Origin: the human T2T-CHM13v2.0 reference genome, Homo sapiens
DNA length: 64,000 nt
Reading direction: 5' to 3'
Assembly (NCBI GenBank): GCA_009914755.4
Contig: CP068257.2
Location: 19,232,001-19,296,000 of the forward strand
The notes below the pieces were generated by a model. The model was not told where the DNA came from and did no database searches. It was given only the letters and a program-made list of their open reading frames with translations. This document shows positions 50,721 through 56,940 of this stretch, one piece after another; the first letter of the stretch is position 1; every line of letters starts with the position of its first letter. The position numbers were made by a program, and so were the translations under genes.

Positions 50721-52171
50721 AAAATTGGCAAATATTCATTAAATGCCAGTTATGTGTCAGGCATATTATTATAATAGTCACTATTATTTTGGCATAAATT
50801 AACATTTTACACAAAATAGATGTCACTTTTTAAAGGTATTATCAGTGAGAATTTCCTTTTGGAAAAGCTAGGGAGTTTATTTTTATGAGAACTCTTAAGA
50901 ATATCAATTGTGTTTTAGCAAATAAATTGTTCTGGGCATCCAAATTCAAAGTAAAATGTGAAAGATTTGATAATTCATTGAATTATAATCAACAAATTAT
51001 GTCCAGAAGACATAAAGGAAGGGAAGAGCAAATTGGAAGCAGTAAGTATGGTAGTTGTTGAAGAAATAAGCAAATGCACGTTGGACTGAAATGTTAAGCA
51101 CTGATTACTGGAAACAATATGGAAGTTAATTAATTTCTTTAGAATATTGTTAAAATGATTCAGATTACAGAGGAACAGTGGGTAAATTTTAGTATTTTTT
51201 TGTTATATTTTAAGTTCTGGGAAACATGTGCAGAACGTGCATGTTTGTTACATAGATATACACGTGCCACGGTGGTTTGCTGCATCCAGCAACCTGTCAT
51301 CTACATTAGGTATTCTCCTAATGCTATCCCTCCCCTAGCCCCCGACACCAGACAGGCCCCAGTGTGTGATGTTCCCCTCCCTGTGTCCATGTGTTCTCAT
51401 TGTTCAACTCCCACTTATGAGTGAGAACATGTGGTGTTTGGTTTTCTGTTTCTGTGTTAGTTTGCTGAGAATGATGATTTACAGCTTCATCCATGTCCCT
51501 ACAAAGGACATGAACTCATCCTTTTCTGTGGCTGCATAGTATTCCATGGTGTATATGTGCCCATATTATTAATGGGCATTTGGGTTGGTTCCAAGTCTTT
51601 GCTATTGTGAATAGTGCTACAAGAAACATATGTGTGCATAAGTCTTTATAGTAGGATGATTTATAATCCTTTAGGTATCTACTCAGTAATGGGATTGCTG
51701 GGTCAAATGGTATTTCTTGTTCTAGATCCTTGATGAATCACCACACTGTCTTCCACAATGGTTGAACTAATTTACACTCCCACACACTGTGTAAAAGTCT
51801 TCCTATTTCTCCACATACTCTCCAGCATCTGTTGTTTCCTGACATTTTTAATAATCGCCATTATAACTGGCATGAGATGGTATCTCATTGTGGTTTTGAT
51901 TTGTATTTCTCTAATGACCAGTGACTCTGAGATTATTTTCATACGTTTTTTGGCCACATAAATGTCTTCTTTTGAGAAGTGTCTGTTCATATCCTCCCAC
52001 TTTTTGATGGAGTTGTTTTTTTCTTGTAAATTTGTTTAAGTTCCTTGTAGATTCTGGATAATAGCCCTTTGTCAGATGGATAGATTGCAAAAACTTTCTC
52101 CCATTCTGTAGGTTGCCTATTCACTCTGATGATAGTTTCTTTTGCCGTGCAGAAGCTCCTTAGTTTAGAGT

Positions 52172-53518
52172 TGCTGGCAAGATGGCTGAATAGGAATAGC
52201 TCCGGTCTGCAGCTTATGGCGAGATCAACACAGAAGACGGGTGATTTCTGCATTTCCAACTGTGGTACCCGGCTCATCTCTTTGGGACTGGTTAGACAGT
52301 GAGTGCAGCCCACAGAGGGTGAGCCAAAGCAGGGTGGGGCATCACCTCACCCTCCAGGAAGTACAAGAGGTTGGGGAACTCCCTCCCTTAGCCAAAGGAA
52401 GCCATGAAGTACTGTGCCCTGAGGAACCGTGCGCTCCAGCCCAGATACTATGTTCTTCCCACGGCCTTCACAACCCACAGACCAGGAGATTCCCTCGGGT
52501 GCCTACACCACCAGGGCCATGGGTTTCAAGCACAAACTGGGTGGCCATTTGGACAGAAACTGAGCTAGGTGCAGGAGTTTTTTTTGTTTTGTTTTTTTTC
52601 ATACCCCAGTGGCACCTGGAACGCTAACAAGATAGAACCGTTCACTTCCCTGGGAAGAGGGCTGAAGCTTCACCAGAGAGCCAACTGGTCTAGCTCAGCA
52701 AATCCCACCTCCACAGAGCCCAGCAAGCTAAGACCCACTGGCTTGAAATTCTCGCTGCCAGAACAGCAGTCAGAAGTTGACCTGGAATGCTCCAGCTTGG
52801 TGGGAAGAGGGGTGTCCGCCATTACTGAGGCTTGAATAGGTGGCTTTTCTCTCACAGTGTAAACAAAACCACTGGGAAGTTCAAACTGGGCAGAGCTCAC
52901 CACAGCTCAGCAAAACCAATGTAGCCAGACTGCCTCTCTAGATTCCTCCTCTCTGAGCAGGGCATCTCTGAAAGAAAGGCAGCAGCCCTAATCAGGGGCT
53001 TATAGATAAGACTCCCATTTCCCTGGGACAGAGCACCTGGGGGAAGGGACAGCTGTGGGCACAGCTTCAGCAGACTTAAACATTTCTGCCTGCTGGCTCT
53101 GAAGACAGCAGCGGATCTCCCAGTATAGTGCTGAAGCTCTGCTAAGGGACAGACTGCCTCCTCAAGTAGGTCCCTGTCTCCTGACTGGGAGACATCTCCC
53201 AGAAGTGGTTGACAGATATCTCATACAGAAAAGCTCCAGCTGGCATTTGGTGGGTTCCCCTCTGGGACGAAGCTTCCAGAGGAAGGAACAGGCAGCAATC
53301 TTTGCTCTTCTGCAGCCTCTGCTGGTGATACCCAAGCAAACAGGATCTGGAGTGGACCTCCAGCAAACTCCAGCAGACCTGCAGCAGAGGGCCATGACTG
53401 TTAGAAGGAAAACTAACAAACAGAAAGGAATAGCATCAATGTCAACAAAAAGGATGTCCACACAGAAATCCCATTTGAAGGCAACCAACATCAAAGACCG
53501 AAGGTAGATAAATCCACG
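52172..53518 (+). promoter_or_regulatory. L1 5'UTR (internal Pol II promoter region of the element; likely decayed), long-form 5'UTR typical of older L1PA subfamilies
   Basis: sequence from the canonical L1 start ggcaagatggctgaatagg to the ORF1 ATG at 53519 (about 1.35 kb, longer than the ~0.9 kb L1HS 5'UTR). Confidence 0.6.
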
Positions 53519-54607: not shown

Positions 54608-56584
54608 AATGACAGAATCAAATTCACACATAACAATATTAACCTTAAATGTAAATGGGCTAAATGCCCCAATTAAAAGACAAAGACTGGCAGATTGGAT
54701 AGAGTCAAGACCCATTGGTATGCTGTATTCAGGAGACCCATCTCACATGCAAAGAAAAATATAGACTCAAAATAAAGGGATGGAGGAATATTTACCTAGC
54801 AAATGAAAAGCAAAAAAAAGTAGGGGTTGCAATCTTAGTCTCTGATAAAACAGACTTTAAACCAACAAAAATCAAAAGAGACAAAGAAGGGCATTACATA
54901 ATGGTAAAGGGATCAATGCAACAAGAAGAGCTAATTATCCTAAATATATATGCACCCAATACAGGAGCACCAAGCTTCATGAAGCAAGTTCTTAGAGACC
55001 CACAAAGAGACTTAGACTCCCACATAATAATAGTGGGAGAATTTAACACCCCACTGTCAATATTAGACAGATCAACAAAACAGAAAATTAACAAGGATAT
55101 TCAGGAGTTGAACTCAGCTTTGGACCAAGCAGACCTAATAGACATCTACAGAACTCTCCACCCCAAAACAACAGAATATACATTCTTCTCAGCACGACAT
55201 CACACTTATTCTAAAATTGACCACATAATTAAAAGTGAAACATGCCTCAGCAAATGCAAAAGAATGTAAATCATAACAAACAGTCTCTCAGACCACAGTG
55301 CAATCGAATTAGAACTCAGGATTAAGAAACTGAGTTCTACATGGAAACTACATGGAAACTGAACAACCTGCTCCTCAATGACTATGGGGTAAATAACGAA
55401 ATTAAGGCAGAAATAAAGAAGATCTTTTAAACCAATGAAAACAAAGACACAGTGTACCAAAATCTCTAGGACACAACTAAAGCAGTGTTTAGAGGGAAAT
55501 TTATAGCACTAAATGTCCACAGGAGAAAGCAGGAAAGATCTAAAGTCTACACCCAGAAGCAAGAGCAAACAAATTCAAAAGGTAGCAGAAGACAAGAAAT
55601 AACTAAGATCAGAGCAGAACTGAAGGAGATAGAGACACGAAAAATACTTTTAAAAAATCAGTGAATCCAGGAACTGGCTTTTTGAAAAGATTAACAAAAT
55701 AGACCACTAGCCAGACTGATAAAGAAGAAAAGAGAGAAGAATCAAATAGATACAATTAAAAAATGATAAAGGGGATATCACCACTGATCCCACAGAAATA
55801 CAAACTACCATCAGAGACTGCTATAAACACCTCTATGCAAATAAACTAGAAAATCTAGAAGAAATGGATAAATTCCTGGACACATACACCCCCCCAAAAC
55901 TAAACCAGGAAAAAGTTGAATCCCTGAATATACCAATAACAAGTTCTGAAATTGAGGCAGCAATTAATAGCCTACCAACCAAAAAAATCCCAGGACCAGA
56001 TGGATTCAGAGCCAAATTCTACCAGAGGTACAAAGAGGTCCTGGTACCATTCCTTCTGAAACGATTCCAGACAATAGAAAAAGAGGGACTCCTCCCTAAC
56101 TCATTTTAGGAGGTCAGCATCATCTGGATATCAAAACATGGCAAAGACACAACAAACAAAGAAAATTTCAGGCCAATATCCCTGATGAACATCGATGTGA
56201 AAATCCTCAATAAAATACTGGCAAACCAAATCCAGCAGCACATCAAAAAGCTAATCCACCACGTTCAAGTTGGCTTCATCCCTGGGATGCAAGGCTGGTT
56301 CAACATATGTAAATCAATAAATGCAATTTGTCACATAAACAGAACCAATGACAAAAAACCACATGATTATCTCAATAGATGCAGAAAAGGCCTTCGATAA
56401 AATTCAACACCTCTTCATGCTAAAAACTCAATAAATTAGGTATTGATGGAATGTATCTCAAAATAATAAGAGCTATTTGTGATAAACTCACAGCCAATAT
56501 CATATAGAATGAGCAAAAGCTGGAAGCATTCCCTTAAAAACTGGCACAAAGACAAGGATGCCATCCCTCACCACTCCTATTCAA
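54608..56584 (+). pseudogene. L1 ORF2 remnant (endonuclease domain, Z region, start of the reverse-transcriptase domain), truncated at the insertion boundary and frameshifted
   Basis: atgacagaatcaaattcacacataacaatattaacc = ORF2 start (MTGSNSHITILT). ORF 54715-55269 (CCIQETHLTCKEKYRLKIKGWRNIYLANEKQKKVGVAILVSDKTDFKPTKIKRDKEGHYIMVKGS...) is the APE-type endonuclease domain. 55864-56109 ([22 protein letters not shown]...[16 protein letters not shown]...) and 56185-56400 (...[38 protein letters not shown]...) follow in ORF2 order. Confidence 0.85.
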
Positions 56585-56940
56585 TTTCAGTATTTTTGAA
56601 GGCATTTCACACAATAGCAATGTTAATATATGTGCAAATTTAACAATAATAAGTTAGTAAGGTACAACCACATGTATAGAATTTTGGCATAGAAGATTGG
56701 GAATTACCATTGCTAAAATAAAGTATAGCTAAGAGTATAATGTAAATTACAAACAACTTTCTTCACTACAGTATAAGTTAAGCTTAATGGTGGAACAAAT
56801 TTTAAATAGTATCTTTAAGAACTTTAATAAAACAACAAATAATACATAAAATACATTAAAATTTACATGTTATATATTTTGAACTAGTTTAGTGAAAATA
56901 TATAAACAAATCACTGGTATACTGTGATGTGTGCATAATT

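What the first reader, a model, noticed from the sequence alone, without database searches (positions are those of the whole stretch)
51187..56597. Composite LINE-1: minus-strand 3' arm joined head-on to a plus-strand arm starting at nucleotide ~8 of the L1 5'UTR, with a shared candidate TSD (inverted, internally deleted twin-priming product)
Seen in sequence:
- An antisense L1PA-type 3' arm (51201-52170) ends at 52170.
- At 52172 the canonical L1 5' end (ggcaagatggctgaatagg...) begins on the opposite strand.
- That arm runs 4.4 kb through the 5'UTR, a frameshifted ORF1 and the ORF2 endonuclease/Z region, and stops at ...PLSPLLFN.
- The near-identical 13-mers ttttagtattttt and tttcagtattttt sit just outside the two extremities. 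This argues for a single integration event rather than two adjacent insertions.
Established knowledge: L1 5' inversions arise by twin priming (Ostertag and Kazazian model). The two arms normally meet at nearly the same L1 coordinate.
What is odd here:
- The arms do not meet. About 1 kb of ORF2 (RT core through the FADD region) is missing.
- The inverted arm reaches the extreme 5' end of the L1 RNA. I think that is uncommon for inverted elements.
Inference: a twin-priming product with an internal deletion, placing an intact-at-its-5'-end L1 5'UTR (sense and antisense promoter region) inside an inverted structure. The element is old (long 5'UTR, decayed ORFs), so promoter activity is doubtful.
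Basis: partly seen in the sequence, partly recalled or inferred. Interest (0 to 1): 0.55.

Follow-up and report, generated by a model that had tools for sequence, protein, structure and literature searches.

The report
Old twin-primed inverted LINE-1 insertion
This is one ancient, dead LINE-1 retrotransposon copy in primate DNA whose front 4.4 kb was inserted backwards relative to its tail, a well-known by-product of how LINE-1 copies itself ("twin priming"), so it is real but ordinary.

Summary
Window 51202-52167 (minus strand) is the last ~1 kb of an L1 (ORF2p residue 1015 to the 3' end). Window 52176-56584 (plus strand) is the same kind of L1 from about nt 10 of the 5'UTR to ORF2p residue 668. 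L1 nt 3992-5026 (1035 nt) are absent. A 13-15 nt direct repeat (AATTTYAGTATTTTT, 14/15) brackets the composite exactly; chance gives 7.5e-5 to 1.8e-3. The nick site is TTTTT/GA, and 2 nt of microhomology sit at the internal priming point.

Both arms are equally diverged from L1HS within ORF2 (88.99% and 88.71% identity). Their private decay at sites the L1 lineage never changed is also indistinguishable (6.4±0.7% vs 7.7±1.2%, p=0.32).

All of this fits one twin-priming insertion of an old L1PA element. The 4.4-kb inverted arm reaching the RNA 5' end is long but expected. The 5'UTR has lost most CpGs and the ORFs are broken.

I could not run a repeat-library subfamily call or examine an orthologous empty site. 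Interest is low.

The parts
51187..51199 (.). Left copy of the target-site duplication (TTTTAGTATTTTT; the in-register match starts at 51185, AATTTTAGTATTTTT). Its terminal T-run merges with the poly(A) remnant.
   Evidence: 12/13 (14/15 in register) identical to 56585-56597. Chance is 7.5e-5 to 1.8e-3.
51200..51201 (-). Minimal poly(A) tail remnant, seen as TT on the plus strand. It is up to 7 nt (51195-51201) if the T-run of the TSD is counted as tail.
   Evidence: the L1 3' end ...AACTTAAAATATAAC is followed by AAAAAAA, then TACTAAAA.
51202..51409 (-). L1 3'UTR of the non-inverted (poly(A)-primed) arm.
   Evidence: alignment to the end of L1HS; 84-86% to young copies and 92.6% to the 3'UTR in contig L086.
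51410..52167 (-). ORF2 C-terminal part of the non-inverted arm (ORF2p residues 1015-1275, L1HS nt 5027-5813), with stop codons and frameshifts.
   Evidence: PDB 8uw3_A residues 1015-1066, E=3.7e-23. (88.71% nt identity to L1HS, 676/762).
52168..52175 (.). Inversion junction: 5-8 nt (GAGTTGCT) assignable to neither arm. GCT(GG) may be L1 5'-terminal sequence.
   Evidence: neither alignment extends into it. (old copy L016 starts GCTGGCAATATGG).
52176..53518 (+). L1 5'UTR of the inverted (internally primed) arm, starting at about L1HS nt 10 with the CAAGATGGC box. It is 1343 nt long against 896 in L1HS and is CpG-depleted.
   Evidence: 16 CpG (11.9/kb) vs 44.6/kb in L1HS, with extra sequence mainly at 52492-52750 and 53227-53366.
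53519..54544 (+). ORF1, open for 177 codons and then frameshifted or stopped. Its coiled-coil region is diverged from the L1HS type.
   Evidence: PDB 6fia_A, E=6.5e-26. (Pfam Tnp_22_trimer, E=2e-16).
54609..56584 (+). ORF2 codons 1-668: the complete endonuclease, the linker and the first ~60% of the reverse transcriptase. It ends at L1HS nt 3991 (...SPLLF), before the FADD active-site motif.
   Evidence: 8uw3_A residues 536-593. (88.99% nt identity, 1754/1971). (Exo_endo_phos 1-225/225; RVT_1 3-130/205). (end point).
56585..56597 (.). Right copy of the target-site duplication (TTTCAGTATTTTT). The preceding AA (56583-56584) is shared by L1 nt 3990-3991 and the target, giving 2 nt of microhomology. 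GAAGG follows, so the first-strand nick was TTTTT/GA.

Best explanation
One retrotransposition event of an old L1PA-lineage element, resolved by twin priming.

Shown:
- The L1 endonuclease-type nick lies on the window's plus strand at TTTTT/GA.
- The T-run primed reverse transcription on the poly(A) tail. This produced the arm now at 51202-52167, which stops at L1 nt 5027.
- The opposite strand was cut 13-15 nt away, which created the TSD.

Inferred:
- The 3' end of that second cut annealed through 2 nt (TT:AA) to an internal site of the L1 RNA at nt 3990-3991. It primed a second cDNA that ran about 4 kb to the 5' end of the RNA (nt ~6-10). This cDNA is now the plus-strand arm 52176-56584.
- The two cDNA ends were joined with 5-8 extra nucleotides.
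- RNA between nt 3992 and 5026 was copied by neither reaction, so it is missing.

Since insertion the copy has decayed by about 7% at sites the L1 lineage never changed. From general primate neutral rates (my inference) that suggests roughly 30-45 million years. It has lost its ORFs and most 5'UTR CpGs, and it has no function.
For: - Geometry: two abutting L1 segments in opposite orientation. The inverted one covers L1 nt ~10-3991 and the non-inverted one nt 5027 to the end. ORF2p residue mapping to PDB 8uw3_A agrees.
- One TSD pair flanks the whole composite, 14/15 in register, with chance 7.5e-5 to 1.8e-3. TSD length of 13-15 nt matches the published peak of 14-16 (PMC2912911).
- The nick site TTTT/G is one of the accepted endonuclease motifs (PMC12016303 Table 1).
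- The outer end of the inverted arm has no A-tail and shares 2 nt with the target. About 70% of 5'-inverted L1s show 2-5 nt of microhomology there.
- Same age and lineage position for both arms: 88.99% vs 88.71% identity to L1HS in ORF2. Against the same young copies, 87.3-89.0% vs 87.5-88.9%. Private decay 6.4±0.7% vs 7.7±1.2%, p=0.32, and outgroup-state fraction 10.3% vs 7.1%, p=0.52.
- Intact copies lie near the D_C = D_N diagonal, as this pair does.
- No inverted repeat exists that could have mediated a later inversion.
- A second, older L1 in the same window has the same layout.
Against: - No orthologous empty site could be examined, so the single-event claim rests on the TSD and on age parity, not on direct observation.
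- Age parity has limited power. The minus arm offers only 543 informative sites, so a difference of about 2.5 percentage points (roughly 10 My) would go unseen.
- No intermediate-age intact copies were available to calibrate regional rates.
- The poly(A) tail is only 2-7 nt.
- The 2-nt microhomology is weak on its own.
- 5-8 unassigned nucleotides at the inversion junction replace the microhomology often seen there.
- The subfamily was not assigned with a curated library.
Confidence: 0.85

Rival explanations
1. A normal full-length minus-strand L1 insertion was later rearranged. Its 5' four kilobases were inverted in place and about 1 kb was deleted by an unrelated DNA-breakage event.
For: The final arrangement, the single TSD pair and the equal age of the two arms are all equally compatible with this. 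Sequence alone cannot time the inversion.
Against: - One inversion breakpoint would have to fall exactly between the TSD and the first ~10 nt of the L1, and the other at nt 3991, with a further 1-kb loss.
- No inverted repeats are present to drive such an inversion.
- The 2-nt overlap between L1 nt 3990-3991 and the target sequence next to the TSD is what priming predicts. A random break does not predict it.
- Twin priming is common: ~10% of all human L1 copies and ~31% of lineage-specific ones are 5'-inverted (PMC2912911).
Confidence: 0.05
2. A single integration event used two different L1 RNA molecules of the same subfamily. One was primed on its poly(A) tail at the first nick. The other was primed internally at the second nick.
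For: - The 1035-nt gap means there is no sequence overlap that ties the two arms to one template.
- Priming of both nicks by two mRNAs has been proposed as 'dual priming' (PMC2837659).
- All the TSD and age evidence fits this equally well.
Against: - Dual priming as defined has both RNAs annealing by their poly(A) tails. The plus arm's outer end is internal L1 sequence with no A-run.
- It is less parsimonious than one RNA held by one ribonucleoprotein.
- It cannot be told apart from twin priming in a copy this old.
Confidence: 0.05
3. Two independent L1 insertions lie side by side: a 5'-truncated minus-strand copy and a full-length plus-strand copy that later lost its 3' 2 kb. The flanking 13-mers match by chance.
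For: The window is L1-rich, with four other L1 fragments. The flanks are AT-rich and low in complexity, which raises chance matches. The age test cannot exclude two insertions within about 10 My of each other.
Against: - The chance TSD match is 7.5e-5 to 1.8e-3.
- Neither arm has its own TSD. The sequence after the minus arm's 5' end (GAGTTGCTGGCAA) does not repeat TTTTAGTATTTTT.
- The plus arm lacks a 3' end and poly(A), and it stops exactly at the TSD copy.
- No continuation of the plus arm is found downstream or elsewhere in the window.
- The arms are indistinguishable in divergence and lineage position.
Confidence: 0.04

Closest known systems
5'-inverted L1 insertions made by twin priming (Ostertag & Kazazian 2001, as described in PMC2912911, PMC2837659, PMC12016303 and PMC12350158)
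   Same: - Two fragments of one L1 in opposite orientation inside a single TSD pair.
- The poly(A)-bearing fragment sits at the endonuclease nick.
- The inverted fragment comes from upstream L1 sequence.
- Microhomology at the internal priming site.
- An internal deletion between the fragments.
   Different: Only in degree.
- The inverted arm is 4.4 kb (about 4 kb in L1HS coordinates) and reaches the RNA 5' end. The median inverted cDNA in germline polymorphisms is 751 bp.
- The gap is 1035 nt, whereas 46% of cases lie within 20 bp.
- 5-8 extra nucleotides sit at the inversion junction.
The older inverted L1 in the same window (45449-46532 minus, 46534-47837+ plus)
   Same: Head-on minus/plus arms of one L1 with matching divergence from L1HS (74.4% and 74.6%).
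   Different: - Its arms nearly meet in L1 coordinates (4750 vs at least 4564, a gap of 185 nt or less).
- Its inverted arm is short and 5'-truncated at L1 nt 3258.
- It is much older.
- I did not establish its TSD.
Dual priming / poly(T)-headed L1 insertions (Meyer et al. 2010, PMC2837659)
   Same: Both nicked target strands prime reverse transcription, and the result is an inversion-deletion architecture within TSDs.
   Different: Those loci carry a homopolymer (poly(T)/poly(A)) at the inverted end. Here the inverted arm begins at an internal ORF2 position with no A-run.
Full-length L1PA insertion
   Same: Contains a 5'UTR beginning within ~10 nt of the canonical start with the CAAGATGGC box, plus ORF1, ORF2 N-terminus, 3'UTR and TSD.
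   Different: It is not colinear. 1035 nt of ORF2 are absent and the 5' four-fifths are inverted, so it could never have been retrotransposition-competent.

Membership tests
LINE-1 (primate L1PA lineage) element | ORF1p with the L1 trimerisation coiled coil | tested here: met
   Pfam Tnp_22_trimer, E=2e-16. PDB 6fia_A, E=6.5e-26.
LINE-1 (primate L1PA lineage) element | ORF2p with APE-type endonuclease followed by reverse transcriptase, colinear with human ORF2p | tested here: met
   Exo_endo_phos 1-225/225 and RVT_1 3-130/205. Residues 536-593 and 1015-1066 of 8uw3_A. 81% and 75% amino-acid identity after frame correction.
LINE-1 (primate L1PA lineage) element | Canonical 5' terminus (…GGAGC CAAGATGGCCGAATAGG…) and 3'UTR ending in poly(A) | tested here: met
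   The 5' end aligns from L1HS nt ~10 and resembles the starts of independent full-length copies. The 3' end aligns to the last base of L1HS, but the tail is only 2-7 A.
LINE-1 (primate L1PA lineage) element | Assignment to a named subfamily (L1PA2…L1PA16) by a curated consensus library | not testable with these tools
   No Dfam/Repbase library is available. Indirect data: ~11% from L1HS in ORF2, ~7% private decay, a long 5'UTR and an ORF1 coiled coil diverged from the L1HS type. These suggest an older L1PA; my guess from memory is L1PA7-L1PA10.
Twin-priming 5'-inverted L1 insertion | Two abutting fragments of L1 in opposite orientation, with the inverted one from L1 sequence upstream of the non-inverted one | tested here: met
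   Plus arm L1 nt ~10-3991, minus arm nt 5027 to the end, with the junction at 52168-52175.
Twin-priming 5'-inverted L1 insertion | One target-site duplication flanking the whole composite, with poly(A) next to one copy and an endonuclease-type nick site | tested here: met
   A 13-15 nt TSD, 14/15 in register, chance 7.5e-5 to 1.8e-3. Nick TTTTT/GA, which is motif TTTT/G as accepted in PMC12016303.
Twin-priming 5'-inverted L1 insertion | Outer end of the inverted fragment is an internal L1 position with microhomology to the target overhang | tested here: met
   It ends at L1 nt 3991. AA at 56583-56584 is shared with the target sequence (GGGTAAATTT… vs …TTCAATTT…). The overlap is only 2 nt, so it is weak alone.
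Twin-priming 5'-inverted L1 insertion | Both fragments derive from one source element (same subfamily, same age) | tested here: met
   88.99% vs 88.71% to L1HS. Private decay 6.4% vs 7.7%, p=0.32, and lineage position p=0.52. The power limit is about 2.5 percentage points.
Twin-priming 5'-inverted L1 insertion | Composite absent as a unit from the orthologous pre-insertion site in an outgroup species | not testable with these tools
   No primate genome collection is available. Exact-ORF look-ups found nothing. The flanks are not part of an older repeat that could serve as a surrogate empty site.
Dual priming (two poly(A)-primed RNAs; Meyer et al. 2010) | Homopolymer (poly(T)/poly(A)) at the outer end of the inverted part | tested here: not met
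   The outer end of the plus arm is ...CCACTCCTATTCAA, followed directly by the TSD, with no A-run.
Recombination-mediated (NAHR) inversion between inverted repeats | Homologous inverted repeats at the inversion breakpoints | tested here: not met
   Only two chance-size inverted matches of 14-15 nt occur in 51100-56700. The arms do not overlap in L1 coordinates.

The most novel reading that the evidence does not exclude
The large gap (1035 nt) combined with an inverted cDNA that ran about 4 kb to the cap-proximal end could mean one of two things. Either the poly(A)-primed reverse transcription stalled early while a second enzyme completed a near-full-length copy, or the two arms were copied from two separate RNA molecules in one integration complex. 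In that case loci like this would be natural records of two-polymerase or two-template integration intermediates.
Probability: 0.07. Interest if true: 0.25.

Novelty: already known. Interest (0 to 1): 0.1.

Why it matters
It matters little beyond annotation. The two oppositely oriented L1 fragments that a repeat annotator would list separately are one insertion event, which is relevant when counting or dating L1 insertions.

The locus is a clean, fully resolved example of the inversion/deletion outcome of twin priming. Its inverted arm is unusually long and includes the whole 5'UTR. That 5'UTR has lost about three quarters of its CpG density relative to L1HS and the ORFs are broken, so promoter or coding activity is not expected. 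This is inference; no expression data were examined.

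Tried and rejected
- A first TSD Monte-Carlo script timed out. I rewrote it in vectorised form.
- I tried to classify the arms by subfamily. No repeat library is available. Khan et al. 2006, Ostertag & Kazazian 2001 and Szak et al. 2002 are not held. Two papers that mention L1PA7/8/10 gave no diagnostic sequence or UTR lengths.
- I collected L1 copies from contaminated bacterial assemblies and metagenomes, hoping for intact copies of intermediate age spanning both arm regions. 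All spanning copies were either young (96.6-99% to L1HS) or distant (~73%), so the regional-rate calibration has no mid-range points. No fetched copy carries the whole long 5'UTR. Only pieces match: L016 15-336, L111 86-366, L118 and L107. Window 52492-52750 has no counterpart in any fetched copy, so I could not confirm it as native 5'UTR.
- Per-insertion breakpoint data from PMC12016303 (Table S12), which would have quantified how rare a 1-kb gap or a 5'-complete inverted arm is, were cut off in the stored supplement.
- Exact-sequence look-ups of the junction-spanning ORF and the ORF1 fragment found no other assembly.
- The reconstructed empty site matches nothing else in the window or the loci except a simple repeat, so there is no surrogate empty site.
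- Considered and rejected: nested insertion of one arm into the other (no arm-specific TSD), dual priming (no homopolymer at the inverted end), and NAHR inversion (no inverted repeats).

Full report
**What is there.** Window 51187-56597 is primate LINE-1 sequence. The window also holds nine Alu 5' heads against zero expected by chance.

No repeat library is available, so I wrote an L1HS sequence from memory and validated it before use.
- It has intact ORFs of 338 and 1275 codons.
- Its ORF2p is colinear over residues 1-1275 with PDB 8uw3_A, and its ORF1p matches 2yko and 6fia.
- Its full length aligns nt 3-6026 at 97.7-98.6%, with 1-5 gap openings, to three independent human-contaminant contigs fetched later: L014, L002 and L003.

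All L1 coordinates below refer to this 6026-nt reference (ORF1 906-1922, ORF2 1986-5813).

**Anatomy.** blastn of the reference against the whole window and end-point alignments give the following.
- A minus-strand arm, window 52167->51202, equals L1 nt 5027 to the 3' end at 85.1% identity.
- A plus-strand arm, window 52176-56584, equals L1 nt ~10-3991. The long block 778-3991 is at 85.2%, and the 5'UTR is recognisable in pieces.

Protein-level mapping agrees.
- The minus arm enters ORF2p at residue 1015.
- The plus arm contains ORF2p residues 536-593 in one open stretch and an ORF1 coiled coil.
- Pfam finds Tnp_22_trimer, a complete Exo_endo_phos domain, and RVT_1 cut at profile position 130 of 205.

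L1 nt 3992-5026 (1035 nt, ORF2p residues 669-1014, including the FADD motif at residues 700-703 of the validated ORF2p) are absent and occur nowhere nearby. Between the arms lie 5-8 nt (52168-52175, GAGTTGCT) that align to neither. Independent full-length copies begin ...GGGAGGAGC|CAAGATGG. One old copy (L016) begins GCTGGCAATATGG, so part of this filler may be L1 5'-terminal sequence. The one substantive correction is that the plus arm extends well into the reverse transcriptase, not just the endonuclease/Z region.

**Target-site duplication and priming sites.** TTTTAGTATTTTT (51187-51199) and TTTCAGTATTTTT (56585-56597) abut the two outer ends. In register the match is 14 of 15 (AATTTYAGTATTTTT).

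I used the window itself as the null and allowed 24 offset combinations.
- Such a match occurs in 7.5e-5 of random position pairs.
- It occurs in 1.8e-4 of pairs when the left site is anchored on a T-run.
- When both copies are forced to end in TTTTT, the remaining 8-mer matches in 1.8e-3.

The reconstructed target reads ...GGGTAAATTTYAGTATTTTT/GAAGGC.... The nick TTTT/G is one of the endonuclease motifs accepted in PMC12016303, and the T-run continues into the poly(A) remnant of the minus arm (2-7 nt).

The outer end of the plus arm carries no A-run. Its last two bases (AA, L1 3990-3991) are also the two bases that precede the TSD in the left flank. That 2-nt microhomology is what internal priming by the second-strand overhang predicts. 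About 70% of 5'-inverted L1s have 2-5 nt there, and the TSD length fits the published 14-16 nt peak (PMC2912911).

- After frame-aware projection onto L1HS, nucleotide identity within ORF2 is 88.99% (1754/1971) for the plus arm and 88.71% (676/762) for the minus arm.
- Against the same independent young L1PA copies the values track each other. For L014 they are 88.8 and 88.2, for L013 89.0 and 88.1, for L017 87.9 and 87.9, and for L016 87.3 and 87.7.
- Intact copies that span both regions lie near the diagonal D_C = D_N at both the young and the distant end. The window's pair (11.0%, 11.3%) lies there too, though no intermediate-age copies were recovered.

To remove the subfamily component I restricted the comparison to sites where L1HS, ten young copies and four distant outgroup L1s agree. 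There the active lineage never changed, so any difference is private decay.
- Plus arm: 90/1398 = 6.4 ± 0.7%.
- Minus arm: 42/543 = 7.7 ± 1.2% (Fisher p = 0.32).
- At sites where young and outgroup states differ, the arms carry the outgroup state in 28/271 and 6/84 cases (p = 0.52).

The arms are therefore indistinguishable in age and in position on the L1PA lineage, within a resolution of about 2.5 percentage points. A pooled private divergence of ~7% suggests an insertion some 30-45 million years old. That figure is my inference from general primate neutral rates and was not computed here.

**Mechanism.** The data fit twin priming step by step.
1. A first-strand nick at TTTTT/GA, with poly(A)-primed cDNA that stopped at L1 nt 5027.
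2. A second-strand cut 13-15 nt away.
3. Annealing of that overhang at L1 nt 3990-3991, and a second cDNA that ran to the 5' end of the RNA.
4. Joining of the two cDNA ends with a few extra nucleotides.

The geometry, the TSD, the nick motif and the age parity are shown. The order of events and the use of a single RNA are inferred.

**Rivals.**
- A later in-place inversion plus deletion needs a breakpoint exactly at the TSD/L1 boundary and has no inverted repeats to drive it.
- Two RNAs in one event cannot be excluded, but the published dual-priming model predicts a homopolymer at the inverted end, and none is present.
- Two independent insertions conflict with the TSD statistics, the missing arm-specific TSDs, the tail-less plus arm that stops at the TSD, and the age parity.

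**Comparison with what is known.** 5'-inverted L1s make up ~10% of all human L1 copies and ~31% of human- or chimpanzee-specific insertions (PMC2912911). They are 18-22% of polymorphic and somatic insertions (PMC12016303).

[quoted passage not shown] Deletions and duplications at the inversion breakpoint are illustrated in a 1,019-genome long-read survey (PMC12350158). Only 46% of 287 cases have arm ends within 20 bp (PMC12016303). So 'the arms do not meet' is not an anomaly.

What is unusual in degree is the size of the gap (1035 nt) and the length of the inverted arm: 4.4 kb reaching the RNA 5' end, against a median of 751 bp for germline inverted cDNAs. I could not quantify how rare that is, because the per-insertion table was truncated in storage.

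An older L1 12 kb... in fact about 4-5 kb upstream in the same window (45449-47837) shows the classical version, with arms nearly meeting at L1 nt ~4564-4750.

**State of the element.** The 5'UTR is 1343 nt against 896 in L1HS. The extra sequence lies mainly at 52492-52750 and 53227-53366, and I could not confirm it in other copies. The 5'UTR retains the CAAGATGGC box but has 11.9 CpG/kb against 44.6 in L1HS. ORF1 is open for only 177 codons, ORF2 is riddled with stops and frameshifts, and the catalytic half of the reverse transcriptase is missing. The element could never have been autonomous, and nothing suggests present activity.

**Verdict.** The feature is a well-preserved but ordinary member of a well-known class. 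The decisive checks I could not run are a curated subfamily assignment and an orthologous empty site.

Noticed in passing
window 45449-47837 (junction 46532/46534): A second, much older L1 with the same head-on inverted layout. The minus arm is L1HS nt 4750-5835 (74.4%) and the plus arm is nt 3258-4564 (74.6%). L1-like sequence seems to continue past 47837. The arms nearly meet in L1 coordinates (gap of 185 nt or less), which is the classical twin-priming picture. I found no convincing TSD in a quick search.
   Followed up: partly
window 16703-17896 (minus) and 34971-35118 (plus): Two further old L1 fragments at ~73-75% identity to L1HS, covering L1 nt 4581-5731 and 5680-5829. The window is L1-rich.
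   Followed up: no
loci L001-L080 (e.g. L002 = BMRF01000060.1 'Actinomadura cremea', L003 = LZSC01000001.1 'Mycobacterium sp.', L014, L016, L017): Dozens of deposited bacterial and archaeal genome assemblies contain contigs that are human L1 at 94-99% identity, several of them near full length (6 kb). This is human DNA contamination in those assemblies. It served here as an independent L1 reference.
   Followed up: partly
L086 (marine metagenome contig OSIY01005555.1), 5144-5345: Its L1 3'UTR is 92.6% identical to the minus arm's 3'UTR, far closer than any other copy (83-86%). Its ORF2 is nevertheless young (97-98% to L1HS). It is probably a chimeric assembly joining an old L1PA 3' end to young ORF2 sequence.
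   Followed up: no
L016 (CZJT01000051.1), 15-336 and 371 onward: A piece matching the window's old-type 5'UTR (window 53142-53454, 82%) lies upstream of a separate, decayed L1 5' start that reads GCTGGCAATATGG, followed by a young-looking ORF2. This is either a nested or tandem L1 arrangement or a chimeric assembly.
   Followed up: no
window 52492-52750 and 53227-53366: Stretches of the element's 5'UTR with no counterpart in L1HS or in any fetched L1 copy, including a T-rich tract at 52578-52600. They are probably subfamily-specific 5'UTR sequence of an older L1PA, but I could not verify that.
   Followed up: partly
window 5624, 7494, 24503, 27778, 32148, 36659, 38801, 44638, 48924: Nine Alu 5' heads (GGCCGGGCGCGGTGGCTCA with 3 or fewer mismatches; none expected by chance). 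The one at 44638 is a perfect match, so it is probably a young Alu. The GC-rich blocks at ~48.5-49.2 kb and ~57.7-58.5 kb in the composition profile are probably Alus as well.
   Followed up: no
window ~56940-56970, 27186-27251, 29871-29916, 5211-5242: Copies of the same simple or low-complexity repeat. It turned up when the reconstructed empty site was compared with the rest of the window.
   Followed up: no
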